From assembly GCA_034530875.2 (NCBI GenBank), contig JAVRCJ020000031.1, forward strand, positions 1 to 64,000: a DNA stretch of 64,000 bases. Direction: 5' to 3'. This DNA comes from Nostoc sp. DedSLP01. Its GTDB lineage: Bacteria; Cyanobacteriota; Cyanobacteriia; Cyanobacteriales; Nostocaceae. This document shows, piece after piece, positions 1 through 18,164 of this stretch; the first letter of the stretch is position 1; each line of letters opens with the position of its first letter. The notes below the pieces were generated by a model, which ran no database searches, was not told the DNA's origin, and saw only the letters and a list, made by a program, of their open reading frames with translations. Made by a program: the position numbers and the translations under genes.

Positions 1-90
1 AAAAAACCCCCCCCCCCCCCCCCCCCCGGGTTTTTCACAACACCAAACCCCCCCCCCCCGCTTGGGGGGGGGTGGGGTGGGGGGTGGGTA
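1..90. other. Low-complexity poly-C/poly-G stretch, probably a contig-end or sequencing artefact
   Basis: Homopolymer runs of C and G unlike anything else in this AT-rich window. Confidence 0.6.
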
Positions 91-227
91 AACACGATTG
101 TGGGGCAAGAGTTTGAGCTTAAGTTGAAACGTATCTGTGCGCCCCTACGATAATTTGATTTTTAAGAGTGGATTCCAGTTAATTGAAAACTACTTTATGT
201 TCAATACCCAGGAAGTTTGTACTCTTT

Positions 228-1034
228 TTAATTATTTTTTGGTATTGCCAAACTGTGAGAATCAGAGTGAGTTTGACTCTTTAACCATGTTTGCAGCAGA
301 AATTCTAGTACTTGGTCTTTCACTTCTCTAAATTCATGAGAAAACCATTTTTCAACTTTCAGAATGTGATAACCTAATTTTGTTTGAACCGGGCCAATGA
401 CATCACCATCTTTTGCTTCTGCAATAGCTTGTCCTAGTTCTGGCATTAATTCGGAAACAAAACGAATACCTACAAAGCCACCACTTTCTTTAGATTGCTT
501 ACCTTTAGAATATTGTAGTGCTAAGCTACAAAATGCAGATTTATCTTCTTGTAGCGCTTGAACTATTCTTAAGGCTTCTGTGAGATCGGGTACGAGAATT
601 TGAGATAAAGCAACCCGTTTAAAAATATAAGGATCTACTAGATATTGAGTATCTATAGTCGAGCCAAATAGACGTTCTTTTAACTTTTGTGTCAGCAGTG
701 TAACTTTAATACTTTCAGACCACTGTTCTACTGTTAAACGCTGCTGTGCTAGCCATGCCAAGGTTTCTGAAGCTGTTAATAATTTGTGTTCTTGGCGGAA
801 GGTATCACCTGCGGCTTGCAGTTCATCCTCAGAAACAGTAATGTCTAACTGTTCGCAGAGGCGCAAAATCAAAACTTCTTGTTCGGTATCAGCGGCAATT
901 TGTGCAAGTTTATATGAATGGCGGAGATGGTCTAATATTTGTTCGTTTGTTGCGAGTGAAATTTCTGGCAGTTTTAGGGTTGCTAAAAGATTGTCACCGC
1001 TAGAGATTCTTGGTGTAGCTACATTTCCTGTCAT
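228..1034 (-). CDS. Parvulin/PpiC-type peptidyl-prolyl isomerase (foldase), last visible gene of the RiPP cluster
   Basis: 268 aa with rotamase motifs LSQILV, FCSLALQYS, GGFVG and GPVQTKLGYHILKV; starts 5 nt after the AKR stop. Confidence 0.85.
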   Translation of the reverse strand: MTGNVATPRISSGDNLLATLKLPEISLATNEQILDHLRHSYKLAQIAADTEQEVLILRLCEQLDITVSEDELQAAGDTFRQEHKLLTASETLAWLAQQRLTVEQWSESIKVTLLTQKLKERLFGSTIDTQYLVDPYIFKRVALSQILVPDLTEALRIVQALQEDKSAFCSLALQYSKGKQSKESGGFVGIRFVSELMPELGQAIAEAKDGDVIGPVQTKLGYHILKVEKWFSHEFREVKDQVLEFLLQTWLKSQTHSDSHSLAIPKNN

Positions 1035-1039
1035 AATTA

Positions 1040-2053
1040 TTAAGCTCGGTAAATTAGTTTATCTGTAGGAATATTTTGGGTTTGAAAACGATTGCGATGT
1101 AGATCGCCATAAACGTTAAGATAATCTATTTCTTCTTGGGTGAGTTTACCTTTTTGAATGCCTGCGATCGCTGCGTCTATATGTTCCCGTTTTTCTGAAC
1201 CCATGAGGCACACATCTACACAGTTTTGGCTCAAAGAATAGCGGTATAAATCGGGGACTGAAGGTTGCCAACATCCTTCGGGCAAACCAGCAGGCGGATA
1301 CCAAAGGGGCCCGTGCATTCCGGCTGATTTAAAGGTGACAATACCAGTTCGCTGCGGATCGTCAGCTTCTAAATTGTTGAATACGGTTTGTTGAGCAGTA
1401 CGGTGAGCGACATTATGTCTTACCATTGCTACATCTATTAAAGAATTATTCAGCCATTTATTAGCTAAATTTAAATCGTGAAAAGAAGCACCAATGTAAC
1501 GAACGGCTCCCATTTTTTTCAGACGTTCTGAAACACCAAACATTCTTTCGACGATGCGCTCGTAAATGCTACCGGCACCTCTTAAATCTTGAGAACGGTC
1601 TAAGCATTTTTCAAACATTGGCTCATCACTAGTACCAATCCAGCCCCAAAAGAAGACATCAATATAGTCCATTTTTAGGTCTACAAATTGGTCGATGATG
1701 GCTGCCATTGCCGCATCTGGATTTTTGATATAACTCACCGTTGCCAATACCACTTTTTCTCGTACTGAGGAGCCACGACCGCATAATTTCCGCAGTCCTT
1801 CAGACATGTGGCTGTAAAGATAGTGGTGTAAATCGCTGGAGTAAAAAAAGAAGTTAATTCCGCGATCGAAGGCGTAAAGTGTATCTTCACTAGAGATTTT
1901 ACCGCCACCTCCTAATCCCAGAGCGCTAACAGTTAAATCGGTTCGTCCTAGCTTGCGGTAAAAAGGTAAATCGGACTCAGGAAATTGATTGTTTAAATCA
2001 CTAACTTCGTTGGAAGTTGCTACTTTTGGGGCTGCAAGGTCGAGTATTTGCAT
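1040..2053 (-). CDS. Aldo/keto reductase-fold protein with atypical active site
   Basis: RKLGRTDLTVSALGLG, GINFF, DYIDVF and GAVRYIGAS are AKR signatures; ATG overlaps the upstream TAA (TAATG). Confidence 0.85.
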   Translation of the reverse strand: MQILDLAAPKVATSNEVSDLNNQFPESDLPFYRKLGRTDLTVSALGLGGGGKISSEDTLYAFDRGINFFFYSSDLHHYLYSHMSEGLRKLCGRGSSVREKVVLATVSYIKNPDAAMAAIIDQFVDLKMDYIDVFFWGWIGTSDEPMFEKCLDRSQDLRGAGSIYERIVERMFGVSERLKKMGAVRYIGASFHDLNLANKWLNNSLIDVAMVRHNVAHRTAQQTVFNNLEADDPQRTGIVTFKSAGMHGPLWYPPAGLPEGCWQPSVPDLYRYSLSQNCVDVCLMGSEKREHIDAAIAGIQKGKLTQEEIDYLNVYGDLHRNRFQTQNIPTDKLIYRA

Positions 2054-3174
2054 TAGTTCAACGGTGTGTAGATGTCTTCAGAGTTGGCATTAAGATAAGA
2101 ACGGTGTAATTCGATTCCCAACAGAGAGAAGTTTTCCAGAATCGCTTGCATCCGTTCGTTGGGAGAGTTCTTTCCTTGCTGGCTAGCTTGTAACAAGCCA
2201 TTAGCAATAATTTGACAGCGATTGATACCAAAACTTTCTTGGGCTGCAAATCTTTGGTTTGGTTCTTCTGCCAAACTTAGCCCTGGCATTAGTAATTTTG
2301 TGAATAATGGAACTTCTGGGTTAAAGTGCGATCGCTTTTCTGTATAAACACTTTGTAGAATTGGCCGAACAGTTTCGTAGTAGCTTTTCTCAAAGTAAAG
2401 TACTGCTGAGTCATAGCGGCCGTAGTCGCCGGGATTGTATAGTGCTTTAAATGTAAAAGGAATATTAACTTCGTTGAGTTGCTGCGTCAAGCTACCCATT
2501 ACCGCAACTGCACCTTCAGGACTTAAATTAAAGTAAATGCGTACAGTTTGTGGCTGATGATTTGGATTGCCGATAGTTTGCGGCCCGGCATTACCAACTG
2601 CCAAATAGAACCCATTTTGCACTCGATTTCGAGGTAGTCGAATCGCAACTAAGTCGCCTACTGTTGCCGATTGTTCGGCTGGTTGTAAGTGGTAATCGCG
2701 TTTAATATACAGGGTCAAACCACCTTTTGTCACCATCAAGGTATCGTCATTTACTTCCTTAACTACAGACCAATTACCGTCAAAGTAACCTTCTCCAGTA
2801 TTGCTGTTGTGTAAGCGATCGTAAAACGCTACATCTACCCCTAAAAAAGAGTTATTTTCTAAATCTTGGTGTAATTGCAGATTAGATGAATCAGCATCAA
2901 GCGCTAGAGTCGTTTGTAAAGAGCCATTATAATAAATTCCGTAGAGAAAACTACGCAATTGCAAGTTTGAATATCTATTTTGAACATCCTGAGACATCTT
3001 TTTGAAACGAACTACCACCTCTTCTGGCAGATCCAAAGGCTTATAATTTGGATGGCGAATGCAAAAATTAGACTCTATTTGAACGTTATTAACGATATCT
3101 TCTAAAGCATCCCACAGCCGTCTATCTGCTTGTGCTGATTGGTTTTGGGTAAATTCTAATAGTTGAGCAACCAT
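2053..3174 (-). CDS. HopA1-family phosphoSer/phosphoThr lyase (LanY-like dehydratase subunit)
   Basis: Motifs VRIYFN, FTFKAL, GRYDSAVLY, PLFTKLL..GLSLAEEP and ESFG..RC; clustered with an APH kinase and precursor peptides. Confidence 0.8.
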   Translation of the reverse strand: MVAQLLEFTQNQSAQADRRLWDALEDIVNNVQIESNFCIRHPNYKPLDLPEEVVVRFKKMSQDVQNRYSNLQLRSFLYGIYYNGSLQTTLALDADSSNLQLHQDLENNSFLGVDVAFYDRLHNSNTGEGYFDGNWSVVKEVNDDTLMVTKGGLTLYIKRDYHLQPAEQSATVGDLVAIRLPRNRVQNGFYLAVGNAGPQTIGNPNHQPQTVRIYFNLSPEGAVAVMGSLTQQLNEVNIPFTFKALYNPGDYGRYDSAVLYFEKSYYETVRPILQSVYTEKRSHFNPEVPLFTKLLMPGLSLAEEPNQRFAAQESFGINRCQIIANGLLQASQQGKNSPNERMQAILENFSLLGIELHRSYLNANSEDIYTPLN

Positions 3175-3230
3175 TGAATAAGTTAGTTAATAAATATGGT
3201 GAAAATGCTGGAAACTTCCTATTTTTTTGA

Positions 3231-3260
3231 AGTAACAGTGCTAAATAAAGCACTGTTACT
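3231..3260 (-). promoter_or_regulatory. Perfect 12-bp stem-loop without U-tract between precursor A4 and the lyase gene
   Basis: agtaacagtgct-aaataa-agcactgttact. Confidence 0.6.
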
Positions 3261-3295
3261 CTTGCTGAAAACCAACTACTATATAGCGTCAAATA

Positions 3296-3466
3296 CTATA
3301 AAGTAAAAGTTATTGTAATAGTTACAGTGATAGTTAGAGTGATTCCGAGCAAACCACCATTAACGTTGGTTAATTCTTCAGCATTTAGTTCATTGAGAAA
3401 GCTTTCAGAATCTTGAAATAGTTCGGAACCAGCGGGACTTAAGTCGTGCAATTTGATGTTAGCCAT
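3296..3466 (-). CDS. RiPP precursor peptide A4 (56 aa)
   Basis: Manual translation MANIKLHDLSPAGSELFQDSESFLNELNAEELTNVNGG-LLGITLTITVTITITFTL*; AGGAG RBS upstream; leader shared with three paralogs. Confidence 0.92.
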   Translation of the reverse strand: MANIKLHDLSPAGSELFQDSESFLNELNAEELTNVNGGLLGITLTITVTITITFTL

Positions 3467-3500
3467 GATGATTTATCTCCTAATTGAGTTAATTTAATTA

Positions 3501-3545
3501 AGTTATGAACTTTTTAGTTCATGTTTAAATATTGGCATATTGATT
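3501..3545 (-). promoter_or_regulatory. Duplicated upstream block, copy in front of A4, with ATGAAC-N6-GTTCAT palindrome
   Basis: agttatgaactttttagttcatgtttaaatattggcatattgatt, near-identical to 4629-4673. Confidence 0.6.
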
Positions 3546-3634
3546 TGAGTAAAACAACATAAATACAATGCTTTTTCGGGCAGAACTAAAACCTTTATGT
3601 CATGTTTTATTTTCGTTAGTTATCTTATATAGTC

Positions 3635-3673
3635 AAAAAAATCTGCCTTGAGACAATGTGTCATCGAAGCAGA
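3635..3673 (-). terminator. Probable intrinsic terminator
   Basis: Minus strand TCTGCTTCGATGACACATTGTCTCAAGGCAGA followed by T7. Confidence 0.45.
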
Positions 3674-3842
3674 ACTAAAACCTTACCAATTATAAGTTTG
3701 AGAAAAATTCAGGTTATACAACCATACAATTTCCAGCTAAACAGAAGTTTCATCTCTGTTGCCTGCTGAGTTCTGCATTACCTAGAGGGTTATCTGAAGT
3801 AGGTATCAGTTATAATTTTCAGCTTCTGTCTGCAATCTAAAC

Positions 3843-3879
3843 AAAAAAAAGACAGTTCCGCCAAGCAGAACTGTCTTTT
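3843..3879 (-). terminator. Intrinsic terminator after precursor A3
   Basis: Minus strand AAAAGACAGTTC-TGCTTGGCG-GAACTGTCTTTTTTTT: perfect stem plus U-tract. Confidence 0.8.
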
Positions 3880-3895
3880 AGACAAAATTAAAAAA

Positions 3896-4063
3896 TTACA
3901 CAGTTACAGTCCAAGTCATCGGCCAGCAATAAGTAAATGACTCTGTTTTAAAACCTCCTTGCACTCCCAGTTCTGCATCTGTGAGTTCATTGAGAAAGCT
4001 TTCAGAATCTTGAAATAGTTCGGAACCTGCGGGATTTAAGTCATGAATTTTGATAGTAGCCAT
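3896..4063 (-). CDS. RiPP precursor peptide A3 (55 aa)
   Basis: Manual translation MATIKIHDLNPAGSELFQDSESFLNELTDAELGVQGG-FKTESFTYCWPMTWTVTV*; AAGGA RBS. Confidence 0.92.
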   Translation of the reverse strand: MATIKIHDLNPAGSELFQDSESFLNELTDAELGVQGGFKTESFTYCWPMTWTVTV

Positions 4064-4093
4064 CAGTTCTCATCCTTAAATATTGTGTGAATC

Positions 4094-4130
4094 AAAAAAA
4101 AAGACAGTTCCACTAAGCAGAACCGTCTTT
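4094..4130 (-). terminator. Intrinsic terminator-like hairpin after precursor A2
   Basis: Minus strand AAAGACGGTTC-TGCTTAGTG-GAACTGTC plus T-run; paralog of 3843-3879 with one G-U pair. Confidence 0.7.
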
Positions 4131-4146
4131 AAGCAAAACTAAAAAA

Positions 4147-4326
4147 TTACCAAGTCCAAGACCAAGAGTAAGTAACTGTCAAAGTAATAGAAACAGTAAC
4201 CGATTCTGCTCTCAAACCACCATGTACTCCGAGTTCTGCATCTGTTAATTCATTAAGAAAGCTCTCAGAATCTTGAAACAGTTCAGAACCAGCGGGACTC
4301 AAGTCATGAATTTTGATAGTAGCCAT
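4147..4326 (-). CDS. RiPP precursor peptide A2 (59 aa)
   Basis: Manual translation MATIKIHDLSPAGSELFQDSESFLNELTDAELGVHGG-LRAESVTVSITLTVTYSWSWTW*; GAGGA RBS. Confidence 0.93.
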   Translation of the reverse strand: MATIKIHDLSPAGSELFQDSESFLNELTDAELGVHGGLRAESVTVSITLTVTYSWSWTW

Positions 4327-4366
4327 AAGTTATTATCCTCAAAAAATTAATGTGTGAATTACAAAC

Positions 4367-4401
4367 AAAAAAGACAGTTTGACTAAATATGACTATCTTT
4401 T
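4367..4401 (-). terminator. Weakened terminator-like hairpin after precursor A1
   Basis: Minus strand AAAAGATAGTCATATTTAGTCAAACTGTCTTTTTT; degenerate paralog of the other two hairpins. Confidence 0.5.
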
Positions 4402-4417
4402 AAGTAAAACTAAAAAA

Positions 4418-4597
4418 TTACCAAGTCCAAGACCAAGAGTAAGTAACTGTCAAAGTAATAGTAACCGTAACTGATTCTGCTGCTCGACCGCCGTGTACTC
4501 CCAGTTCTGCATCTGTTAGCTCGTTGAGAAAGCTTTCAGAATCTTGAAACAGTTCGGAACCAGCGGGGCTTAAGTCGTGAATTTTGATAGTAGCCAT
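4418..4597 (-). CDS. RiPP precursor peptide A1 (59 aa)
   Basis: Manual translation MATIKIHDLSPAGSELFQDSESFLNELTDAELGVHGG-RAAESVTVTITLTVTYSWSWTW*; AGGAG RBS. Confidence 0.93.
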   Translation of the reverse strand: MATIKIHDLSPAGSELFQDSESFLNELTDAELGVHGGRAAESVTVTITLTVTYSWSWTW

Positions 4598-4628
4598 GAG
4601 ATTTCTCCTAATTGAATAAAGTTAAATG

Positions 4629-4673
4629 AGTTATGAACTTTTTGGTTCATGTCTAAATATTGGCATAGTGATT
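4629..4673 (-). promoter_or_regulatory. Duplicated upstream block, copy in front of A1, with ATGAAC-N6-GTTCAT palindrome
   Basis: agttatgaactttttggttcatgtctaaatattggcatagtgatt. Confidence 0.6.
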
Positions 4674-4825
4674 CAGAAATTAGCTAATATCAAACAGTAA
4701 CTTTTATCCCTTTAATACATCTTTTTTGTCATCTTTTATATTTTGTATTTTGCTAGGGAAATAAATCTGGTACTGCAAATTTTGCGATCGAAGTATGTAC
4801 CTTAATAGATTACTCAACAATAAAA

Positions 4826-4857
4826 GGTGCGTTAGCCTACGGCATAACACACCCTAC
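4826..4857 (-). repeat. GTAG-type REP-like palindrome
   Basis: Minus strand GTAGGGTGTGTTATGCCGTAGGCTAACGCACC. Confidence 0.5.
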
Positions 4858-4993
4858 GAATATATTGGATTTCGCTCGACACATTTGTTATTGAGATATA
4901 GTTATTTTCAACTTGCAAAAATGCAAGAAATGGTGAAACAACACTGTTGTTATTTCACCTAAACCTTACCAATTGCAATTATCAAAAATTTAT

Positions 4994-6175
4994 TTAATTA
5001 TGAGAGCTACTGAGTTGGGTTAATTCTGCTGCTGTCGTTCCAAAAACGGTAGGAATAGATTGCTCTGGACGACACAACAAACTTTTAGCAACCTGAAGCA
5101 TAGAAATACCCATATTGCCAAAAGATTTTTGATATTGAATTATGGACTGAATTGATTGAATCAATGCCAGACCAGAAAATTGCACGACTCGCTTAATAAA
5201 ATCAGGATAGCGAACCAAAATTTCTGGAAAAGATTCTAAATAAGCGCTAATCAAAGCATAAATAGAAGGTTGGAGGGATTCGAGGGGAGTCGTAGCTAGG
5301 CGTAAAGATTCCTCGATAGTCATTTCTTTACTAACAATTAAGCTGTTGAGCCAAATTTGTAGATAGCTGCCGATAATTGTCCCTAAATCGAAAGCAGGAT
5401 CTCCCCAAGCCGATCGCTCCCAATCAATCAATCGCACAATGCCGTTTCCTGATACTTCGGCTTGAGTAAAGAACTGTTCCCAATCTTGATGCAATAAAAC
5501 GTTGTTGAGTTTGAGGTCGTTGTGCGTCAGACATCGCGGCTTGAAAGCTGTACTCAGTTCTCTGAGTGCTTCTCCCAAGCTATCGTATCGCTGATAGAGG
5601 GCAAAAAACTTTAAGCCATCAGCGGGTACAGAACCAAAAATTTCCGGGCCAATCTGCTCCAATTTCCGAATTAAAAGCAACACCAAATCGGATTTGATAT
5701 TATCGGAATTTTGAGAGAAGAAATCGTGATATTTATCGCTATTGAAGGTTTCACGATGGATTGTCGCTATAAAATTACCAATACCTGCTGCGATCGCTGG
5801 CGGGAATATATTTCCTTTCATATAGAAATCGTTTAAATCCCGATAGTTATCTAGGTATTTAAAGACAATAATCGAATTTTCTTTATCGAAATGCAGCGCT
5901 TCTGGTAAAAATGGTTTTGTGTAATTCAGTTCGGGAAACTTTTGTACTAACTCTTGAATTCGCCATTCGTCTAAAAACTCACCTGCTGTTTTTCCTTCCT
6001 GATTGTGCCGTTCTTGTTTAACTAAAAGCTTGCGACCGTCTGACAGAGTGAGCAATAAATTAAAATTTTTAGCAGCTACAGCCTCAATCTTTGCCACAGA
6101 TTGCTCTGATTGAGCCAATAAGTCACGTTCGACTAAATAATCGAAAACATTGTTAGAGTTCAATATAAATGTCAT
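4994..6175 (-). CDS. APH/phosphotransferase-family kinase (LanK-like dehydratase subunit)
   Basis: LLVKQE, catalytic loop THNDLKLNNVL, LIDWE and GDPAFDLG; directly upstream of the precursor array. Confidence 0.85.
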   Translation of the reverse strand: MTFILNSNNVFDYLVERDLLAQSEQSVAKIEAVAAKNFNLLLTLSDGRKLLVKQERHNQEGKTAGEFLDEWRIQELVQKFPELNYTKPFLPEALHFDKENSIIVFKYLDNYRDLNDFYMKGNIFPPAIAAGIGNFIATIHRETFNSDKYHDFFSQNSDNIKSDLVLLLIRKLEQIGPEIFGSVPADGLKFFALYQRYDSLGEALRELSTAFKPRCLTHNDLKLNNVLLHQDWEQFFTQAEVSGNGIVRLIDWERSAWGDPAFDLGTIIGSYLQIWLNSLIVSKEMTIEESLRLATTPLESLQPSIYALISAYLESFPEILVRYPDFIKRVVQFSGLALIQSIQSIIQYQKSFGNMGISMLQVAKSLLCRPEQSIPTVFGTTAAELTQLSSSHN

Positions 6176-6281
6176 AGAGTATCAAATATGAGTAACAAGG
6201 TTAAGCAGTGCAGTTTTCAGTAAAAGAATTCTTTTGTCTTCTCAGATTGTAGACAAAAGGCAGATTACAGGCTCTATTGTG

Positions 6282-6313
6282 AAAAGTTTTACTCCGACAG
6301 AAGTAAAACTTTT
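6282..6313. promoter_or_regulatory. Perfect 12-bp inverted repeat between trmB and the RiPP kinase (terminator or operator)
   Basis: aaaagttttact-ccgacaga-agtaaaactttt. Confidence 0.45.
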
Positions 6314-6467
6314 ATGTCCCCAATCTCCTCTAACTCATTTATCCTGATATGGGGACTAAAAGCCTTCTAAGAGAACAATGCTCTGTAGTTACTCAACTGT
6401 AAGGCGATCGCAGCAATTGAAATTTTGAGCAGCAACTAAAACATTTATGCCCTAAAAACTTTTGCGT

Positions 6468-7124
6468 CTAGAGATTTTGCTGTTGTTCTTCTCGCCTGAC
6501 AAACAAAGCGCGATACACAGGTTCGCCCTTGTTTTGAGTATATATTTCTCGTTCTGTGGGGACTGGTAGGGGATTTTCAGTTAGCCATTCTTCTGTACCA
6601 ATTTTCTGATAAGCTGGATGGGCAGCAAAGCGATCGCGCATTTCCACAGCAATAAATTCCATATCGGATTGCACAAATACAACCCCCCCAACCGCAAGAT
6701 AATTAGCTAATTCTGCCACTAGTTCTGGTTGAACTACACGACGTTTAGCATGGCGGGTTTTAAACCAAGGATCGGGAAATTGAATTGTCACCCGCTGTAA
6801 ACTACCTAAAGGCAGAGAAGCTAAAAGCGATGTTAATGAATTATTCACATTACAAAATAAGTAATGCAAATTTGTTAAACCTAACTGAGAACGCAACTTA
6901 TTTGCCTCCACCACCAACGGTTCCCGAATTTCCAAGCCGAGGAAATTCCAGTTTGGTTCTATCTTGGCCATATTCAATAAAAACAGTCCCTTCGCACAGC
7001 CAATATCTAAATGTAGCGGTTGATTTGGGTTGGTATAAACTTTTTCCCAGTCAAGAGGATTTGCTGGTGTTTGATACTTTTGGGCAAGTGGGTTGACATG
7101 TTGGCGGACTCGGACTGCTGCCAA
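6468..7124 (-). CDS. trmB: tRNA (guanine-N7)-methyltransferase
   Basis: RVRQHVNPL, LDIGCAKG, GLEIR and FPDPWFKTRHAKRR. Confidence 0.95.
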   Translation of the reverse strand: MAAVRVRQHVNPLAQKYQTPANPLDWEKVYTNPNQPLHLDIGCAKGLFLLNMAKIEPNWNFLGLEIREPLVVEANKLRSQLGLTNLHYLFCNVNNSLTSLLASLPLGSLQRVTIQFPDPWFKTRHAKRRVVQPELVAELANYLAVGGVVFVQSDMEFIAVEMRDRFAAHPAYQKIGTEEWLTENPLPVPTEREIYTQNKGEPVYRALFVRREEQQQNL

Positions 7125-7506
7125 AATTTGTTCTCCTTGTTGGTAATTCGTAATTCTGAGTGTTGAAGAAGAATTCAGAATTCAGAATTCAAGACTCAGA
7201 AGAAATTAATAGTAAATCTGAATTATTCGCTGATTTAAGACTAATAAATCTATCATTTAATAGGTCTTAAATCAGTTTATTTATTCACCAGTCAGAATTC
7301 ATTCTTAATTCTGGCTCCTGACTTCTGAATTCTATTTTAAAATCCATCTCATCAAGCTAAAAGTGAATTGTTACTATAAAGTGTCATTGATGCTGAATGT
7401 TTAAAAATGTTAAGTATACCGATTTATCGGCACTGAAATCAAGTAAGAGTTATACTTTTTGGAAAAGACTTGTTTTAGCTCCTCCTTTTAACATTTTTAT
7501 AAATCG

Positions 7507-8634
7507 ATGGCTCTCAATTTTCGGTTTGCGGTAGTCAGTGACTTACACTTAGCACTTCCCCACACAATCTGGAATCATCCTAGTCGCTTTCATCTGGTGG
7601 AAGTTAGTATTTCGGCATTTGAAAGTGTACTAGAGCATTTAACACAACTAGATTTAGATTTCCTGTTGTTACCAGGAGATTTAACTCAGCACGGCGAACC
7701 AGAAAATCACGCTTGGTTGCAACAAAGGTTAGCGCAGCTACCTTTTCCCACCTATGTTGTTCCTGGGAATCATGACGTTCCTGTGATGTTTGGCGATCGC
7801 CAATCAATTGCTTTTGCCGATTTTCCCTACTATTACACTAAGTGCGGCTATGAAGATCCGCAACAAATGTACTACATTCGTCAGTTGCTACCAGGTGTCA
7901 AGCTGATTGGATTGAATTCTAACTCTTTTAACGACCAAGGCGAGCAGATCGGATGTTTGGATAGCAAACAGCTTCGCTGGTTAGAAGAAGTGCTAGCTGC
8001 GTTCGCCGATGAATTAATTCTGGTGATGGTGCATCATAATGCGATCGAACACTTGCCCAACCAATCGAATCATCCGTTAGCAAATCGCTATATGTTGGCA
8101 AATTCAGCACAATTGGTGCAATTGCTCAAGCGCTACGGAGTAAAGCTAGTGTTTACGGGGCATTTGCACGTTCAGGACGTTGCCTATTCAGACGGGGTGT
8201 ATGATATTACCACTGGTTCTTTAGTTAGCTATCCTCACCCTTATCGAGTGCTAGAGTTCCATCGGGATAACCAAGGTAGAGAATGGTTGCAAATTTTATC
8301 TCATAGGGTAGAGTCAGTGCCCGATTTCCCCGACTTACAGCAGTCATCGCGACAGTGGATGGGCGATCGCTCTTTCCCCTTTTTAATCAAACTACTTACT
8401 AACTCTCCTTTAAACTTACCATTATCACAAGCCAAAGAATTAGCTCCTGGTTTGCGTGACTTTTGGGCAACTATTGCCGATGGCGATGCCGTCTTAGATT
8501 ACCCCCATTTTCCCCAAGAAGTGCGACGCTACATTCAGACTTATGGCGCATCGCAGCCCAACCCAAGCACTCCCACAGGTGGTACTCTAACTTTGATTGA
8601 TAATAACAGTACGCTTTTGCTGGATAGGAGTTAG
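7507..8634 (+). CDS. Calcineurin-like metallophosphoesterase
   Basis: SDLH, PGDLT, PGNHD, HH and TGHLH metal-binding motifs. Confidence 0.9.
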   Translation: MALNFRFAVVSDLHLALPHTIWNHPSRFHLVEVSISAFESVLEHLTQLDLDFLLLPGDLTQHGEPENHAWLQQRLAQLPFPTYVVPGNHDVPVMFGDRQSIAFADFPYYYTKCGYEDPQQMYYIRQLLPGVKLIGLNSNSFNDQGEQIGCLDSKQLRWLEEVLAAFADELILVMVHHNAIEHLPNQSNHPLANRYMLANSAQLVQLLKRYGVKLVFTGHLHVQDVAYSDGVYDITTGSLVSYPHPYRVLEFHRDNQGREWLQILSHRVESVPDFPDLQQSSRQWMGDRSFPFLIKLLTNSPLNLPLSQAKELAPGLRDFWATIADGDAVLDYPHFPQEVRRYIQTYGASQPNPSTPTGGTLTLIDNNSTLLLDRS

Positions 8635-12575: not shown

Positions 12576-15500
12576 TTAACTAACAAGCTTCTCTCCTTTG
12601 AGCATCCGTGATGCAGCTTCTAGTAACGCTTCTTCAAGATAAGGCTTGGTAAAGTAGCCACTTGCACCGAGTTGAACTGCCATTTGTCTGTGCTTGTCTG
12701 CACCCCGTGAGGTGAGCATCGCAATGGGTAGGTGGTTGAGGTTGGAATCTTTCTGGATGCGAGAGAGTAACTCCAGACCATCGCAACGCGGCATCTCAAT
12801 GTCACAGAATACGATATCACAAGGTAGACCAGAACGGAGTTTATCCCAAGCTTCCTGACCATCACGCGCTTGTTCTACGCGATAACCTGCTTTGTTGAAT
12901 GTCAAAGAAAGCAATTCTCGGACTGTGATTGAGTCATCAACAATTAGCACCGTTGGGTCAATCTTGGTAGCTGGAGCATCTGTAGGAGTAGATTTTTGTT
13001 GCCAAGAACCGCCACCAACTTGTGTAGAAATTCTTCCTTGGAAGATGTCGATGATTTCTAGCACGTCGGCGATAGGCATAATCCGACCATCACCGAGAAC
13101 TGTGGCGCCAGCTACACCAATGGGTTTAGGCGCTGGCCCTTCAAATTGTTTAATTACAATTTCTTGTTCGCTCAACACCAAATCAATCTGTAGAGCAATC
13201 AGCGTATTTGCCGATCGCACCACAACCACAGAAACCATATCATCATCTCGGTTACCGCCATACACATTACCGCGACTAATTTGGCGATTGAAAGTTAAAA
13301 GTTCTTTCAAAGGTCGGAATGGCAGCAGAGTATCGCGCCAGGAAATAAATGATTGTCCGTTGGCGTTATGCTGAATGTTTTTGACTGGGATATCGAGGGT
13401 ATCTTCTACACCGTCCATCGGGAAAGCAATTCTGGCTCTATCGGAGACACAACACAGAGCTTTACAAATACTCAAAGTCAGCGGCAAACGAATTGTGAAA
13501 GTCGTTCCCTTGCCAATTGCAGAATCGGTATTTACTGTACCCCGAATTTCGCTAATTGCCGAACGCACCACATCCATACCGACGCCGCGGCCAGAAATTT
13601 CGTCTGCCTGGTCTTTGATGCTAAACCCAGACTGGAATAATAGATCGTAGACTTCCAGGCGAGATATGGTTTTCGCCTGAGCTTCTGTAATCATGCCAAT
13701 TTTGATTGCCTTAGCCTTAACCCGTGCGGGATCGATACCTGCGCCGTCATCGCCTACAGAAATTACAGTTTGATTACCTTGGTGGAAGGCACGGATAGTA
13801 ATGATGCCTACAGGTGGCTTACCAGCAGCTTGCCTTTGTTCTGGCGTTTCAATCCCGTGAGCGATCGCATTATTGAGCATGTGCGTCAGCGGATCGGTGA
13901 GATGATCTAAAATCATCTTGTCAATTAAAGTATCGCCACCTTCAATTACCAACTCCACTTGTTTGCCGCACTTGATGGCATTGTCGCGCACACCCCGCCG
14001 CCAGCGATCGATTGTTTGGGCAAAAGGCACCATTCGCGCTCTAGTCAGTCCCTCTTGTAGCTGGGTAGTTACCTGGCGGAATTGCCGTGCGACTCGTTCG
14101 GTTTCTTCGGTAACGAAATCAATGTCACTAGCTGACTCCCGCACTCGGACAATACGCTCAATCATCTGCTGGGAGAGGGTGTGGAAGGGAGTAAAGCGAT
14201 CCATTTCTAGTTCGCTAAAACCTCTATCGGAATTAGAGTCCTGTGAATCGGAGCCAGAGTCTTTACCTTTGCGTCCGGCTAACAAAGAAGCTTCTAAAAG
14301 CGATCGCTCGTACAACTCTTGCATCCTTGCTCCCACATCCGAGAGTTGTTGCACCTGAATCAGCAAGTTATCTAGTGATTGCCGCAGTCTTTCGTGATCC
14401 TGCTCCAAGGTGTTGCGATTCACCACCAACTCGCCAACTAAATTACTCATATCGTCCAGTTGCTTAACTGGAACCTTCATCGTTTCTTCAAATCTTGTAG
14501 CACGACGATTAGAGGGACGTGGAGTTTTATTATTTGTGTTTGTTTTTGCCAGCGCCGAGTGTGATATTGTTTGATCCGCTTCTGCCAGCAACTTCTCCAA
14601 GTCGCTAAATTCATCTATGCGTGGTGATGGAGTCGCAGTTGTCGCTGGGATTGGTTGAGTTAAAGGTTGGGGTTGGCGTAATCCGTCGTAAGCACCGCTA
14701 GATACGGCTGGCTCATTCTTATCTGTACCCAGCAATTCTTCCAAAGCAGCAAAATCTAAGTCTGGTATCTCCTTAGCTTTGGAGACAGGCGCAACTTCTT
14801 CTCCTAGTAACGCTTCCAAATTCGCAAATTCATCTTCTACAGCAGCTACTTCAACCGTTTCTGCTAATTCTTCAGTAGGTGCAACAGTGCTTTCTGATTC
14901 TAGTGCAATTGCCAAATTCGCTTTTAGATTATCATCTGTTTCTACACTTTCTTGAATAGTTGTTTGTCCAAATTCTGCTGCGTCTTCTCCTAATTCTGTT
15001 TCTAACAAAGGAGTTTCTGTAAACAAAAAATCATTCGCAAAATTCAGGTCTGCACTTTCCAAAGCTGCATTTTCTGCGAACTCCAAAGCAGTTTCTAAAC
15101 TATTATTTTCAGTATTTAAAACTTCTGGGTTTGTCTGGAATAAAGTAGAAGTTTCTAAAGCCAATAATTCAGCCGCCACATCATCTGTGGTTTCCATCTG
15201 AATATAGGTGGCATCATTAACGGCTACATCCTCAAACAGTAGCTGTGAATTTTCATCAACAGAATCGAATAAATCGCCTAGTTGTGCTTGGGGTAATTCG
15301 GAAGTTTCTAAAGCCGATAATTCAGCCACCACATCATCTGTGGTTTCCATCTGGATATAGGTGGCATCATTAACGGCTACATCCTCAAACAGTAGCTGTG
15401 AATTTTCATCAACAGAATCGAATAAATCACCTAGTTGTGCTTGGGGTAATTCGGAAGTTTCTAAAGCCGATAATTCAGCCGCCACATCATCTGTGGTTTC

Positions 15501-18164
15501 CATCTGGATATAGGTGGCATCATTAACGGCTACATCCTCAAACAGTAGTGGTGAATTTTCATCAACAGAATCGAATAAATCACCTAGTTGTGCTTGGGGT
15601 AATTCTGAAGTTTCTAAAGCCGATAATTCAGCCACCACATCATCTGTGGTTTCCATCTGGATATAGGTGGCATCATTAACGGCTACATTCTCAAACAGCA
15701 GTTGTGAATTTTCATCAACAGAGGCAAAAGAATCAAGGTCTAGTTCCGGAGGTGTTTGAGCAGAATCAATAGTAGATATCTCTGGGGACTGATTAGTAAA
15801 TTCTGGAATAAAATCTACAGCTTCTGGTTGTTGCGATAAGTTGTGAATTTCCTCTACTACAGGATACTGAGCGAATAATGGGGTTGATTCTTCTATTAGC
15901 AGTGATTCGCTAATTTCAGGAAAAATTGTTGAATTATTTGGTGTTAAATCCTCAAATAAATCATCATTAGTATCCGATGATAATATCAGATCTAGTTGTT
16001 CTTCATCCTGGAAATTTAAATCAAAATCTTCTATTTCAAAACTGTTTATAGGAGAAGCAGCAGACTGTTGACTATCAGCAAAAATATCATCAGTCGCAGT
16101 AAATAAATTTTCTTCTAAGGCATTTTCTATATTATGTTCAATTAAGGAGTCAAATTCGTTTTCTAGTTGTACTGTAGTTTCTTGATTCCAGAAATTGCTC
16201 AAATCGTCTTCTGTTGGAGAAAAATCAGATGCCGTTTCCGGAGGTGTATCAAATAAATTACTAATTTGTGAATCAGTCGTAGATAATAATTCTTCTGTTT
16301 CTATTTCAAATGGATTTTCTAATTCCAAATCTTGTGACTGAGGTAATTCTATGTAGTCATTAGAAGTAATTTCTTTTACCCAGTTTTTATTTTCAGTTTC
16401 TAACAAGAAGTTATCAAGATTATTTTCTCGATCGCTCGATAATTCTATACTCTGGTTAACCTCATTTTCTGATTGAGTTACATCGCCTATACTCAAGAGG
16501 TCGTTTTCATCATCTAGTGTTATTGCCAATAAATCTGCAAACAAATCGTTATCATTGTCGCTGGTTTTGACAATTTCTTCTATTGGTTGTTCTAAAAATT
16601 CTTGTAAAATATTCTCGGAATTTAAATCGAGTTCGTTGAGTTCGTTTAACTCTATATTCGTCGCCAAGATTTCTCGATCTTGCTGTTTGGGATTTTCCTT
16701 TTCTAGGAAGTTTTCACCAAATAACAGAGATAAATCTTCTGTCTTAGCTGTGGTTGTGGCTTGCTGTTCGTTACTGGCGGTATCTTCATCAAATGAGAGT
16801 AAATCTGATAAATCACCATCAGTATCCTCAGTTTCATTGCTGGCGAAGTCAATTCCTAATGCATCTGTATCAGTAATATCTAAACTTGCTTCTGGTTGCC
16901 AATTTTCATCTAGGTCGGGAGTTTCGCCTTCAAATAAATCGGCAAGGGTATTTAACTCAGCTATTCCTACCTCTGGGCCATTCGGATCGTGGTTTTTACT
17001 GATGGGATGCACTTCCTCATGTGATGTGAGAGGAAAGTTAATTAAAGGTGCGGCGTTGAGCGATCGTTGTAACTCGAAAGACGAGGATTCATTAATATCT
17101 TCGTCTAGATTAAGTTCTTCAATTGGCTCAGATAAGTTAGTTATAGCTAACTGTTGGCTGTCCTCAGTCTCTTGAGGAATTGGTTCTGGTAAAGACTGTT
17201 CGTCAGCCAAATTAGCAGCAACTTCTAACAACTCAATTTCTGCGAAGTTCAAAAGTGCTTCTAGTTGTTGACTAATTGCAATTTCGGCTTCCCTGCCTTG
17301 TAGAACTAATTCTTGAGCTTGCTTGATTTCAGTGATGACAATTTTAGCTAAAGTGAGATAAGTATTTTCTGGATTGGCGATCGCACTTGCTGCGGCTTGA
17401 CACAAACCGCACCAGTTGGGCAAATTCCAAGCCTCACCAAGTTTGACTAACTGGTAACAGCATTCTTGGAGATTTTGCCGAGTTGAAGATGTTGTTGTTT
17501 GCTTAAACAGTTGCAACATTTCCCGCAGTGTTTGTAGCACCTGGGTTTGAAACTCGCTCCAATCGCGATTTTCGTTGGCGTTGGCTGAGGATGATGCCTC
17601 CCCAGATGCAGAGAAAGATATTTCTGTAGTTTCTTCTGCCGAACCGGGAATATCTCGCCGCAGGAAAAGTTCTGTGAGTGTGGAGACATTCTCTACAGAA
17701 CCTGCCAGTTCTGTTGCAGATGTGGCTGCTCCACTGTTTCCTTGTTCTACAAGTTGTTCTAAATGCTCGTTTAGCCACTTAAAGACAGGCTCGGTTTCTG
17801 ACATTAATGTATTAGCTGTCTCTTCAGAAAGCCCATAAGGCCCGCTTAAATGCTCTAATAGTGCTTTGAGGGTATCAGAGACGCCGAGAAATAAAGACTC
17901 TAACTTTTGGTCAATCTGAACCGGATGTTCTTTAAGAACTTTGAAACAATCTTCCAGACGGTGGGATGTATGCTGGATGCTAGTCAAGCCAAGCATTGCA
18001 GCTCCTCCTTTGATAGAGTGAGCCGCCCGGAAGACTTCGCTAATCATTTCCGGGTCGTTGAGGGTACTTTCCAGATTTAGCAACCCTTGCTCAATGGTAT
18101 TGAGATGGTCTCTGGCTTCTTCAATAAAGTAACCCAAAATCCGCTGTTGTTGTTCCGGCAGCAT
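12576..18164 (-). CDS. hmpE: CheA-like hybrid kinase (Hpt, acidic linker, HATPase, CheW, REC)
   Basis: FRAAHSIKG Hpt, NNAIAHGIE, DDGAGID, SGRGVGMDVV, CheW domain and C-terminal receiver. Confidence 0.9.
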   Translation of the reverse strand: MLPEQQQRILGYFIEEARDHLNTIEQGLLNLESTLNDPEMISEVFRAAHSIKGGAAMLGLTSIQHTSHRLEDCFKVLKEHPVQIDQKLESLFLGVSDTLKALLEHLSGPYGLSEETANTLMSETEPVFKWLNEHLEQLVEQGNSGAATSATELAGSVENVSTLTELFLRRDIPGSAEETTEISFSASGEASSSANANENRDWSEFQTQVLQTLREMLQLFKQTTTSSTRQNLQECCYQLVKLGEAWNLPNWCGLCQAAASAIANPENTYLTLAKIVITEIKQAQELVLQGREAEIAISQQLEALLNFAEIELLEVAANLADEQSLPEPIPQETEDSQQLAITNLSEPIEELNLDEDINESSSFELQRSLNAAPLINFPLTSHEEVHPISKNHDPNGPEVGIAELNTLADLFEGETPDLDENWQPEASLDITDTDALGIDFASNETEDTDGDLSDLLSFDEDTASNEQQATTTAKTEDLSLLFGENFLEKENPKQQDREILATNIELNELNELDLNSENILQEFLEQPIEEIVKTSDNDNDLFADLLAITLDDENDLLSIGDVTQSENEVNQSIELSSDRENNLDNFLLETENKNWVKEITSNDYIELPQSQDLELENPFEIETEELLSTTDSQISNLFDTPPETASDFSPTEDDLSNFWNQETTVQLENEFDSLIEHNIENALEENLFTATDDIFADSQQSAASPINSFEIEDFDLNFQDEEQLDLILSSDTNDDLFEDLTPNNSTIFPEISESLLIEESTPLFAQYPVVEEIHNLSQQPEAVDFIPEFTNQSPEISTIDSAQTPPELDLDSFASVDENSQLLFENVAVNDATYIQMETTDDVVAELSALETSELPQAQLGDLFDSVDENSPLLFEDVAVNDATYIQMETTDDVAAELSALETSELPQAQLGDLFDSVDENSQLLFEDVAVNDATYIQMETTDDVVAELSALETSELPQAQLGDLFDSVDENSQLLFEDVAVNDATYIQMETTDDVAAELLALETSTLFQTNPEVLNTENNSLETALEFAENAALESADLNFANDFLFTETPLLETELGEDAAEFGQTTIQESVETDDNLKANLAIALESESTVAPTEELAETVEVAAVEDEFANLEALLGEEVAPVSKAKEIPDLDFAALEELLGTDKNEPAVSSGAYDGLRQPQPLTQPIPATTATPSPRIDEFSDLEKLLAEADQTISHSALAKTNTNNKTPRPSNRRATRFEETMKVPVKQLDDMSNLVGELVVNRNTLEQDHERLRQSLDNLLIQVQQLSDVGARMQELYERSLLEASLLAGRKGKDSGSDSQDSNSDRGFSELEMDRFTPFHTLSQQMIERIVRVRESASDIDFVTEETERVARQFRQVTTQLQEGLTRARMVPFAQTIDRWRRGVRDNAIKCGKQVELVIEGGDTLIDKMILDHLTDPLTHMLNNAIAHGIETPEQRQAAGKPPVGIITIRAFHQGNQTVISVGDDGAGIDPARVKAKAIKIGMITEAQAKTISRLEVYDLLFQSGFSIKDQADEISGRGVGMDVVRSAISEIRGTVNTDSAIGKGTTFTIRLPLTLSICKALCCVSDRARIAFPMDGVEDTLDIPVKNIQHNANGQSFISWRDTLLPFRPLKELLTFNRQISRGNVYGGNRDDDMVSVVVVRSANTLIALQIDLVLSEQEIVIKQFEGPAPKPIGVAGATVLGDGRIMPIADVLEIIDIFQGRISTQVGGGSWQQKSTPTDAPATKIDPTVLIVDDSITVRELLSLTFNKAGYRVEQARDGQEAWDKLRSGLPCDIVFCDIEMPRCDGLELLSRIQKDSNLNHLPIAMLTSRGADKHRQMAVQLGASGYFTKPYLEEALLEAASRMLKGEKLVS
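15148..15722 (-). repeat. 153-bp (51-aa) near-perfect tandem repeat, about 3.8 copies, inside the HmpE linker
   Basis: DSVDENSQLLFEDVAVNDATYIQMETTDDV(V/A)AELSALETSELPQAQLGDLF; tcatctgtggtttccat recurs every 153 nt. Confidence 0.95.

What the first reader, a model, noticed from the sequence alone, without database searches (positions are those of the whole stretch)
4147..4597. A1/A2 cores resemble a ribosomal gramicidin mimic
Seen: cores end ...SVTV(T/S)ITLTVTYSWSWTW, with aliphatic residues first and Trp at alternate C-terminal positions. Established: gramicidin A alternates L and D residues, is aliphatic at the N-terminus, ends Trp-D-Leu-Trp-D-Leu-Trp, and folds into a membrane beta-helix; polytheonamide does similarly via epimerases. 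Established: LanJ enzymes reduce Dha/Dhb to D-Ala/D-Abu. Inference: dehydrating then reducing every second residue would give an alternating D/L hydrophobic 18-mer that could form an ion channel. Alternatives are a poly-Dhb peptide or an amphipathic beta-strand/amyloid.
Basis: inference. Interest (0 to 1): 0.8.

Follow-up and report, generated by a model that had tools for sequence, protein, structure and literature searches.

The report
Candidate ribosomal gramicidin-like peptide cluster
A cyanobacterial gene cluster encodes short peptides in which every second residue is Ser or Thr, together with enzymes that probably convert those residues to mirror-image (D) amino acids, which would give a ribosome-made look-alike of the membrane antibiotic gramicidin; none of the chemistry has been tested.

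Summary
Observation confirmed. A1 and A2 are double-glycine precursors whose cores carry nine Ser/Thr at strictly alternate positions (2 of 200,000 shuffles each). They lie in a catalogued but uncharacterised cyanobacterial cluster type (Eyles 2021, Family 1A): LanK-like kinase, HopA1/LanY lyase, PPIase, exporter. No LanJ of a known type is present. The only reductase candidate is an aldo-keto-reductase-fold protein that lacks the AKR Asp, Lys and His but has its own invariant residues. This family sits beside three unrelated Ser/Thr dehydratases (LanK/LanY, LanM, LanB; 48 of 52 informative metagenome loci) and is sometimes fused to LanY, so it probably acts on Dha/Dhb. In 26 cores of the close relatives, 198 of 200 Ser/Thr fall on one parity. 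Very similar Cys-free, Trp-tailed alternating cores recur with other leaders beside LanM or LanB plus the same AKR-like gene. Best reading (about 0.5): dehydration then reduction gives an alternating D/L, probably beta-helical, membrane-active peptide. A true gramicidin-type channel is less certain (about 0.35) because the cores start with charged, uncapped residues. Most clusters with this AKR-like gene have non-alternating cores. No activity was tested.

The parts
4418..4597 (-). Precursor A1 (leader 4487-4597, core 4421-4486; 3 Ser + 6 Thr at alternate positions, no Cys)
4147..4326 (-). Precursor A2 (leader 4216-4326, core 4150-4215; 4 Ser + 5 Thr at alternate positions, no Cys)
   Evidence: tandem duplicate of the A1 unit
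3896..4063 (-). Precursor A3 (18-aa core; Ser/Thr at 3,5,7,13,15,17 with Cys9 and Pro11 on the same parity)
3296..3466 (-). Precursor A4 (18-aa core; seven Thr alternating with aliphatic residues, Gly3 on the same parity)
   Evidence: weak GG-leader HMM hits
4994..6175 (-). LanK-like Ser/Thr kinase (APH family), 393 aa
   Evidence: Pfam APH E 2.9e-8; NCBIfam LxmK E 2.1e-27, 96 bits, below the 315 cutoff; kinase motifs at K53, H218-x-D220, D251
2053..3174 (-). HopA1/LanY-type phosphoSer/Thr lyase, 373 aa
   Evidence: Pfam HopA1 E 4.5e-58; PDB 9dk1_B 'Lyase' E 2.4e-9; R212, K243, R253, Y260 spaced 31/10/7 against 32/10/7 for CaoY R187/K219/R229/Y236 (PMC9486802 passages)
1040..2053 (-). AKR-fold protein without the canonical Asp/Lys/His; candidate Dha/Dhb reductase, 337 aa; start overlaps the lyase stop codon
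228..1034 (-). PpiC-type peptidyl-prolyl isomerase / chaperone, 268 aa
   Evidence: TIGR04500 below cutoff
4100..4130 (-). Terminator-like hairpin after A2 (similar ones at 3847-3879 after A3 and 4932-4959 after the kinase)
   Evidence: 4 found, shuffle mean 1.7; consensus match only
1..227 (.). Contig end. The cluster's remaining genes lie at G000:C2:212-7104: CPBP/Rce1-like protease, second PPIase, HlyD, C39-peptidase ABC exporter, HTH protein
   Evidence: window = C31:1-64000; tblastn/blastn from relatives' loci; families of the L002 orthologues

Best explanation
A RiPP pathway that makes linear peptides of alternating chirality. (1) LanK phosphorylates and LanY eliminates the core Ser/Thr to Dha/Dhb (inferred by homology). 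(2) The AKR-fold protein reduces Dha/Dhb to D-Ala/D-Abu, as a fourth fold doing the LanJ job (inferred from gene neighbourhood; cofactor, chemistry and stereochemistry not shown). (3) The C39 ABC exporter removes the GG leader and exports the cores; the CPBP protease may trim the charged head (speculative). (4) With every second residue D and all side chains hydrophobic, A1/A2 fold as gramicidin-like beta-helices anchored by the C-terminal aromatics and act on membranes (inferred). My odds: alternating D/L product about 0.5; a conducting gramicidin-type channel about 0.35.
For: Alternation is far beyond chance. In 26 unique cores from the window and 7 related Nostoc loci, 198 Ser/Thr lie at odd and 2 at even positions; the 246 odd positions from residue 3 on hold no Asn, Gln, Lys, Glu, Asp, Arg or His, unlike a generic polar strand face; 25 of 26 cores have even length. 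10 of 11 A1/A2-type cores have aromatics at positions 9, 11, 13, 15 of their last 15 residues, the gramicidin A register (positions 9 and 13 recalled; 11 and 15 seen in passages of PMC4964399 and PMC7018991). The AKR-like gene is within 300 bp of the lyase in 61 of 71 cyanobacterial loci and fused to it in 3 protein clusters and L052. Of 52 metagenome loci with its D74/H76 motif and at least 1.5 kb upstream, 48 have a dehydratase within 3.5 kb: 25 LanK/Y, 18 LanM, 5 LanB (Pfam and NCBIfam confirmation for a subset). These proteins form one clade against 6 outgroup AKRs (SH-aLRT 100, quick tree). Cys-free alternating cores recur with unrelated leaders: L156 (LanM + AKR-like; core TSITVTVTYTWTWTWNIHTK, aromatics at 9, 11, 13, 15 from the N-terminus) and L138 (LanB + AKR-like + B12 radical SAM); 21 of 35 unique cores homologous to the L156 precursor have six or more alternating Ser/Thr.
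Against: No activity, mass or chirality data. The AKR-like protein has Phe70, Val106 and Gly137 where AKRs have catalytic Asp, Lys and His, so reductase activity cannot be assumed. Most clusters with this gene have non-alternating cores: outside the close clade only 2 of 157 unique cores reach five alternating Ser/Thr, so the gene does not predict a gramicidin-like product. The recurrent alternating cores at L156 and L138 were found by searching with the AKR-like protein, an ascertainment bias; the close clade is one lineage, not independent samples. Two thirds of A1 sites are Thr, and LanJA enzymes mostly reduce Dha only (PMC11519912 passages). Gramicidin dimerises through its formylated N-termini (PMC7018991 passage); A1/A2 start with a free amine and Arg/Glu, and no formylating gene was seen. 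D-Ala/D-Abu are much smaller than D-Leu. L096, L097, L139 and L205 carry the gene with no dehydratase in the stretch fetched.
Confidence: 0.5

Rival explanations
1. Poly-dehydro peptide: Ser/Thr become Dha/Dhb and stay so (or only Dha is reduced). The AKR-fold protein is a non-catalytic partner of the dehydratase, or reduces only an N-terminal pyruvyl/2-oxobutyryl group after trimming.
For: AKR catalytic Asp/Lys/His are absent; AKR folds with regulatory roles are among the structural matches (Kv-beta, SmbA); fusion to LanY fits a partner role; a CPBP protease lies downstream; 17 of 35 L156-type cores start with Ser/Thr.
Against: A scaffold for one dehydratase would hardly accompany three unrelated ones. 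Polar residues D74, H76, Y80, Y108, H192, N214, H217 are invariant in 17 sequences down to 27% identity, which looks like an active site. 0 of 26 clade cores start with Ser/Thr, and only 26 of 157 other AKR-cluster cores do, against 19 of 71 in clusters without the gene.
Confidence: 0.25
2. The cores are amphipathic all-L beta-strands (amyloid, surfactant or sheath peptides), unmodified or only partly phosphorylated/dehydrated; the enzymes' main substrates are other peptides.
For: Hydrophobic/Thr alternation is the classic beta-strand pattern; no cyanobacterial LanK/LanY product turned up in my literature searches; the genome has a kinase-lyase pair at C24 with no precursor detected.
Against: Only Ser/Thr, never other polar residues, fill the polar positions; all four precursors between the kinase and the lyase share one leader; catalytic motifs are intact; the same core design recurs next to LanM with intact motifs and LanB.
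Confidence: 0.12
3. The AKR-fold protein performs other chemistry on Dha/Dhb, for example adding water back to give D-Ser/D-allo-Thr (net epimerisation, no mass change) or adding another nucleophile; the product is still alternating but hydroxylated.
For: The remodelled, His-rich set of invariant residues and apparent loss of the adenine-contacting Asn position (Ala295, alignment; role of that Asn recalled) leave non-redox chemistry open; association with dehydratases fits any Dha/Dhb-acting enzyme.
Against: The N-terminal Gly-rich loop, Ser190 and Gly285 of the AKR cofactor site are kept; reduction is the established fate of surplus Dha/Dhb (PMC11519912, PMC9811515 passages). No precedent found for rehydration.
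Confidence: 0.1

Closest known systems
Family 1A HopA1/phosphotransferase clusters of cyanobacteria (Eyles et al. 2021, PMC8153245; section 16 and two supplementary spreadsheets seen)
   Same: Same gene pair, GG leaders, multiple precursors. The supplement lists near-identical precursors from Nostoc linckia and has aldo/keto reductase (PF00248) as a co-occurring column.
   Different: No product characterised; the paper calls the cores highly variable without conserved Ser/Thr/Cys; the main text's only 'aldo' hit is 'retro-aldol', and the section read does not discuss alternation.
Class V lanthipeptides (cacaoidin, lexapeptide): LanK + LanY + LanJC (PMC9486802 passages)
   Same: Split kinase/lyase dehydratase; D-amino acids by dehydration then reduction.
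   Different: A1, A2 and A4 have no Cys, so no Lan/AviCys; no LanD, LanC or F420-dependent LanJC gene in the cluster.
LanJA/LanJB/LanJC pathways (lacticin 3147, NpnJ of Nostoc punctiforme, bicereucin, rodencin; PMC11519912, PMC12328550 passages)
   Same: Proposed chemistry (Dha/Dhb to D-Ala/D-Abu); homologues of the AKR-like gene sit between two LanM genes in several loci.
   Different: Different fold (AKR barrel); up to nine alternating sites rather than a few.
Linear gramicidin A/B/C (PMC4964399, PMC5345515, PMC7018991 passages)
   Same: Hydrophobic, aliphatic N-half, four aromatics on alternate C-terminal positions, predicted alternating chirality.
   Different: Gramicidin is non-ribosomal, 15 residues, N-formyl and C-ethanolamine, with D-Leu/D-Val; here 22 residues, charged head, free termini, small D residues, all predicted.
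Polytheonamides (proteusins; PMC9811515 passage)
   Same: Ribosomal peptide with many D residues; beta-helical pore (recalled).
   Different: 48-mer, radical-SAM epimerase PoyD, NHLP leader; none of these is in this cluster.

Membership tests
Eyles Family 1A cluster | HopA1 protein next to a phosphotransferase in a cyanobacterium | tested here: met
Eyles Family 1A cluster | Several precursors with conserved double-glycine leader | tested here: met
   near-identical precursors are in the paper's network 1
Class V lanthipeptide | LanK kinase + LanY lyase with catalytic residues | tested here: met
   Motifs and spacing; LxmK HMM is hit below its cutoff; activity not tested
Class V lanthipeptide | Lanthionine/AviCys ring (needs Cys, usually LanD or LanC) | tested here: not met
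   No Cys in A1, A2, A4; no LanD/LanC among cluster genes
LanJA / LanJB / LanJC | Zn-dependent dehydrogenase, flavin-dependent or F420H2-dependent fold | tested here: not met
   Only Pfam PF00248 is hit; fold matches are AKR barrels
LanJA / LanJB / LanJC | Reduces Dha/Dhb to D-Ala/D-Abu | not testable with these tools
   Neighbourhood evidence only
Canonical aldo-keto reductase | AKR (beta/alpha)8 barrel | tested here: met
   Model pLDDT 78; Z 23.1, rmsd 2.9 over 256 residues to 7svq
Canonical aldo-keto reductase | Catalytic tetrad Asp/Tyr/Lys/His | tested here: not met
   Asp, Lys, His positions hold Phe70, Val106, Gly137 in HMMER alignments to Kv-beta, L-galactose dehydrogenase, IolS, AKRtyl; Tyr position ambiguous; tetrad identity recalled
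Canonical aldo-keto reductase | NAD(P)H binding | tested here: inconclusive
   Some cofactor-site positions kept, others changed; no structural check of the pocket was possible
Linear gramicidin | Non-ribosomal synthesis with N-formyl and C-ethanolamine caps | tested here: not met
   Ribosomal ORFs; no such genes in the cluster
Linear gramicidin | Four aromatics on alternate positions at the C-terminus | tested here: met
   10 of 11 A1/A2-type cores
Linear gramicidin | Alternating D/L chirality, beta-helix, cation channel | not testable with these tools
   Inference only
Proteusin / polytheonamide | NHLP or Nif11 leader and radical-SAM epimerase | tested here: not met
   37-aa GG leader; no radical SAM gene in the window cluster or its C2 continuation

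The most novel reading that the evidence does not exclude
An undescribed AKR-fold enzyme family with a rebuilt active site is a fourth kind of LanJ that has been recruited by class I, class II and class V-type dehydratases, and at least three lineages use it to make ribosomal gramicidin analogues: short, Cys-free, strictly alternating D/L peptides that form membrane beta-helices, with the L156 type even gaining an uncharged N-cap from its first Thr.
Probability: 0.4. Interest if true: 0.88.

Novelty: new variant of a known kind. Interest (0 to 1): 0.77.

Why it matters
It would give a function to a large catalogued but uncharacterised class of cyanobacterial RiPP clusters, add a new enzyme fold for installing D-Ala/D-Abu (possibly processive over nine or ten sites, useful for peptide engineering), and show a ribosomal route to gramicidin-like architecture without epimerases. 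The test is cheap: four small genes in E. coli and a mass spectrum.

Tried and rejected
Complex prediction of the AKR-like protein with A1 and NADP: no verdict. RNA runs: no RNA holder listed. Rfam on 1-8000: nothing at gathering score. Single-sequence PDB search with the AKR-like protein: no hit. AKR-blind DNA pattern searches for alternating cores were swamped by hexamer repeats read in another frame; of the 90 loci fetched (30 per search; 62, 50 and 16 genomes had matches, so not exhaustive) 18 had a GG leader, from 9 genomes that all carry the 93-100% identical AKR-like gene; no AKR-less example was found, but the control is weak. A chance or microsatellite origin of the cores was rejected: codons vary and the register is conserved across core types. 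A known-type LanJ in the cluster was not found; I did not search the whole genome for one acting in trans. N-terminal ketoacyl reduction as the main role was down-weighted. No decayed precursor was found between A3 and A4. Earlier scan notes held nothing relevant. The AKR tree is the quick one; the careful search did not finish. Literature searches found no AKR-type LanJ and no ribosomal gramicidin mimic by dehydration-reduction; the library lacks most subscription journals.

Full report
OBSERVATION. The two ORFs are present as described: A1 4418-4597 and A2 4147-4326, minus strand, 59 aa, tandem duplicates with a terminator-like hairpin after A2. After the GG of the leader the cores are RAAESVTVTITLTVTYSWSWTW and LRAESVTVSITLTVTYSWSWTW. 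Nine Ser/Thr occupy positions 5 to 21 at every second residue; 2 of 200,000 shuffles of each core reached that run. A3 (3896-4063) and A4 (3296-3466) share the leader; A4 has a run of seven (46 of 200,000), A3 is not significant by run length (35,613 of 200,000) but all six of its Ser/Thr are on the same parity.

CLUSTER. On the minus strand: APH-family kinase (4994-6175), A1-A4, HopA1 protein (2053-3174), AKR-like protein (1040-2053), PpiC (228-1034). The window starts at a contig end; the genes that follow in relatives (CPBP protease, second PPIase, HlyD, C39 ABC exporter, HTH protein) are at the start of contig C2 at 87-95% identity. Closest relatives are Nostoc records with 92-94% identical AKR-like proteins. 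The kinase hits the LxmK model below cutoff; the HopA1 protein matches a solved RiPP-type lyase, 9dk1_B, and has R212, K243, R253, Y260 in the spacing of the CaoY residues discussed in PMC9486802 (passages). Dehydration of core Ser/Thr is therefore likely, by homology only. The cluster type is Family 1A of Eyles et al. (PMC8153245; section 16 read); their spreadsheets list near-identical precursors and PF00248 as a co-occurring family. The supplementary figures were not held as text and could say more.

THE CORES IN RELATIVES. In the window and 7 related loci with precursors (37 cores, 26 unique), 18 of 26 have six or more alternating Ser/Thr. Counted from the GG, 198 Ser/Thr are at odd and 2 at even positions; the odd positions from residue 3 on (246 residues) otherwise hold Ala, Pro, Ile, Cys, Gly, Leu, Val, Phe and no other polar residue; 25 of 26 cores are of even length. 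10 of 11 A1/A2-type cores have aromatics at 9, 11, 13, 15 of the last 15 residues; the eleventh has a two-residue tail. These genomes are one lineage, so the counts show conservation, not independent trials. Outside it the pattern is rare: 2 of 157 unique cores from 55 other AKR-bearing loci and 0 of 71 from 34 AKR-less HopA1 loci reach five alternating Ser/Thr (only loci where my leader profile found precursors are counted, and the AKR-less loci were the better-scoring part of the list).

THE CANDIDATE REDUCTASE. No Zn-dependent, flavin-dependent or F420-dependent LanJ is in the cluster (the three known kinds: PMC11519912 and PMC9811515, passages). The AKR-like protein folds as an AKR barrel (pLDDT 78; Z 23.1, rmsd 2.9, 256 residues to 7svq), but HMMER alignments put Phe70, Val106 and Gly137 at the catalytic Asp, Lys and His positions (tetrad recalled). 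Instead D74, H76, Y80, Y108, H192, N214 and H217 are invariant across 17 sequences down to 27% identity. It was found in 42 of 401 genomes of the order (HopA1 in 113 of 401) and 45 of 127 of the genus. In 71 fetched cyanobacterial loci it has a HopA1 gene on the same strand in 65, within 300 bp in 61; three protein clusters and L052 fuse the two. A metagenome scan with distant members kept 80 of 128 confirmed loci. 63 show the D74/H76 motif; of the 52 with at least 1.5 kb upstream, 48 have a Ser/Thr dehydratase within 3.5 kb (25 LanK/LanY, 18 LanM, 5 LanB), two more have one further off (L146, L202) and two have none in the stretch (L139, L205). None of the other 17 loci (12 outgroup AKRs, 5 truncated) has one, but only 4 of these had long flanks. 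Several loci are near-duplicates. LanB was confirmed by Pfam for L138, L140, L142, L144, L146, L171 and LanM for L074, L145, L156. A quick tree of 54 chosen rows makes the motif-bearing proteins one clade (SH-aLRT 100) with 7 changes of partner label. What LanB, LanM and LanK/LanY share is the product Dha/Dhb, so the simplest reading is that this family acts on it. L096 and L097 carry the gene beside NHLP precursors with no dehydratase in the stretch fetched, which is unexplained.

RECURRENCE OF THE DESIGN. L156 (LanM + AKR-like at 42% identity, mersacidin/lichenicidin-type leaders) encodes Cys-free alternating cores, one being TSITVTVTYTWTWTWNIHTK, with Ser/Thr at 2 to 14 and aromatics at 9, 11, 13, 15; its first Thr could become an uncharged 2-oxobutyryl cap (inference). 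Of 39 homologues of that precursor (35 unique cores, no genomic context), 21 have six or more alternating Ser/Thr, 26 lack Cys and 9 have Trp-Ser/Thr-Trp; several resemble the A1, A4 and other Nostoc core types closely. L138 (LanB + AKR-like + B12 radical SAM) also has Cys-free alternating cores. Convergence and transfer of core cassettes cannot be told apart here. These examples were found through the AKR-like gene; an AKR-blind control was weak.

MECHANISM AND ODDS. Shown: sequence pattern, gene content, fold, residue changes, neighbourhoods. Inferred: dehydration (about 0.85), reduction by the AKR-like protein at both Dha and Dhb with D outcome (overall about 0.5), beta-helix and membrane action, with a true channel about 0.35. 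Gramicidin is 15 alternating residues with formyl and ethanolamine caps and dimerises through the formyl ends (PMC5345515, PMC7018991, PMC4964399; passages); A1/A2 are longer, have a charged head and would have small D side chains, so they may need trimming, form double helices or act otherwise. Rivals: poly-dehydro peptide (0.25), all-L amphipathic strand (0.12), non-redox chemistry on Dha/Dhb (0.10).

COMPARISON AND NOVELTY. It is a member of Family 1A, works like a class V pathway but is not a lanthipeptide (no Cys in A1, A2, A4), and is not a gramicidin, proteusin or known LanJ system by their defining features. Nine relevant literature searches (listings only) and passages of 10.1101/2020.03.13.990614, 10.1101/2023.10.25.564083, PMC12328550, PMC6497799 and PMC10880069 gave no AKR-type LanJ and no reading of these cores as alternating D/L peptides; subscription journals and bioRxiv supplements were not visible. 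Verdict: real, catalogued but uninterpreted, with a testable new enzyme family; new variant of a known kind; interest 0.77.

Noticed in passing
G000:C40:24413-40704: A second kinase-lyase-AKR-like-PPIase cluster in the same genome with six non-alternating precursors, its own exporter and a neighbouring LanM.
   Followed up: partly
G000:C24:12563-15444: A kinase-HopA1 pair with no precursor, AKR-like gene or exporter detected nearby; all 27 same-family genomes sampled have a HopA1 match, so an orphan pair may have another substrate.
   Followed up: no
L138:833-15637: High-GC metagenome cluster: three or more Cys-free alternating Ser/Thr precursors, TonB-dependent receptor, AKR-like gene, LanB and a B12 radical-SAM C-methyltransferase; polytheonamide-like tailoring on a dehydration-based scaffold.
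   Followed up: partly
L156:5604-10921: LanM with intact cyclase motifs but three Cys-free precursors, followed by the AKR-like gene; the closest match to gramicidin register seen.
   Followed up: partly
L148, L150, L153, L154, L162, L180, L190: The AKR-like gene lies between two LanM genes in two-component lanthipeptide-like clusters; good targets for finding D-Ala/D-Abu.
   Followed up: no
L144:3-10927: Thiopeptide-like cluster (nitroreductases, ThiF, LanB, Ser/Cys-rich precursors) that also carries the AKR-like gene and a CPBP protease.
   Followed up: no
L096:1922-5643, L097:10859-12325, L074:106-1290, L176:10937-12121: Proteins of 350-500 aa with no Pfam hit next to the AKR-like gene and NHLP precursors; possible unknown RiPP enzymes.
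   Followed up: no
L052:7843-9987: One 714-codon frame joining the HopA1 lyase and the AKR-like domain; similar 702-704 aa fusions are P0271-P0273.
   Followed up: partly
window 3896-4063: A3-type cores place their single Cys, and a Pro, on the Ser/Thr parity; the Cys might be dethiolated or form a ring.
   Followed up: no
window 15208-15679: Three or more near-identical 153-bp (51-aa) tandem units inside the CheA-like kinase gene 12576-18164.
   Followed up: no
window 1-110: Long G/C homopolymer runs at the contig end; probably a repeat or assembly artefact that broke the cluster between C31 and C2.
   Followed up: partly
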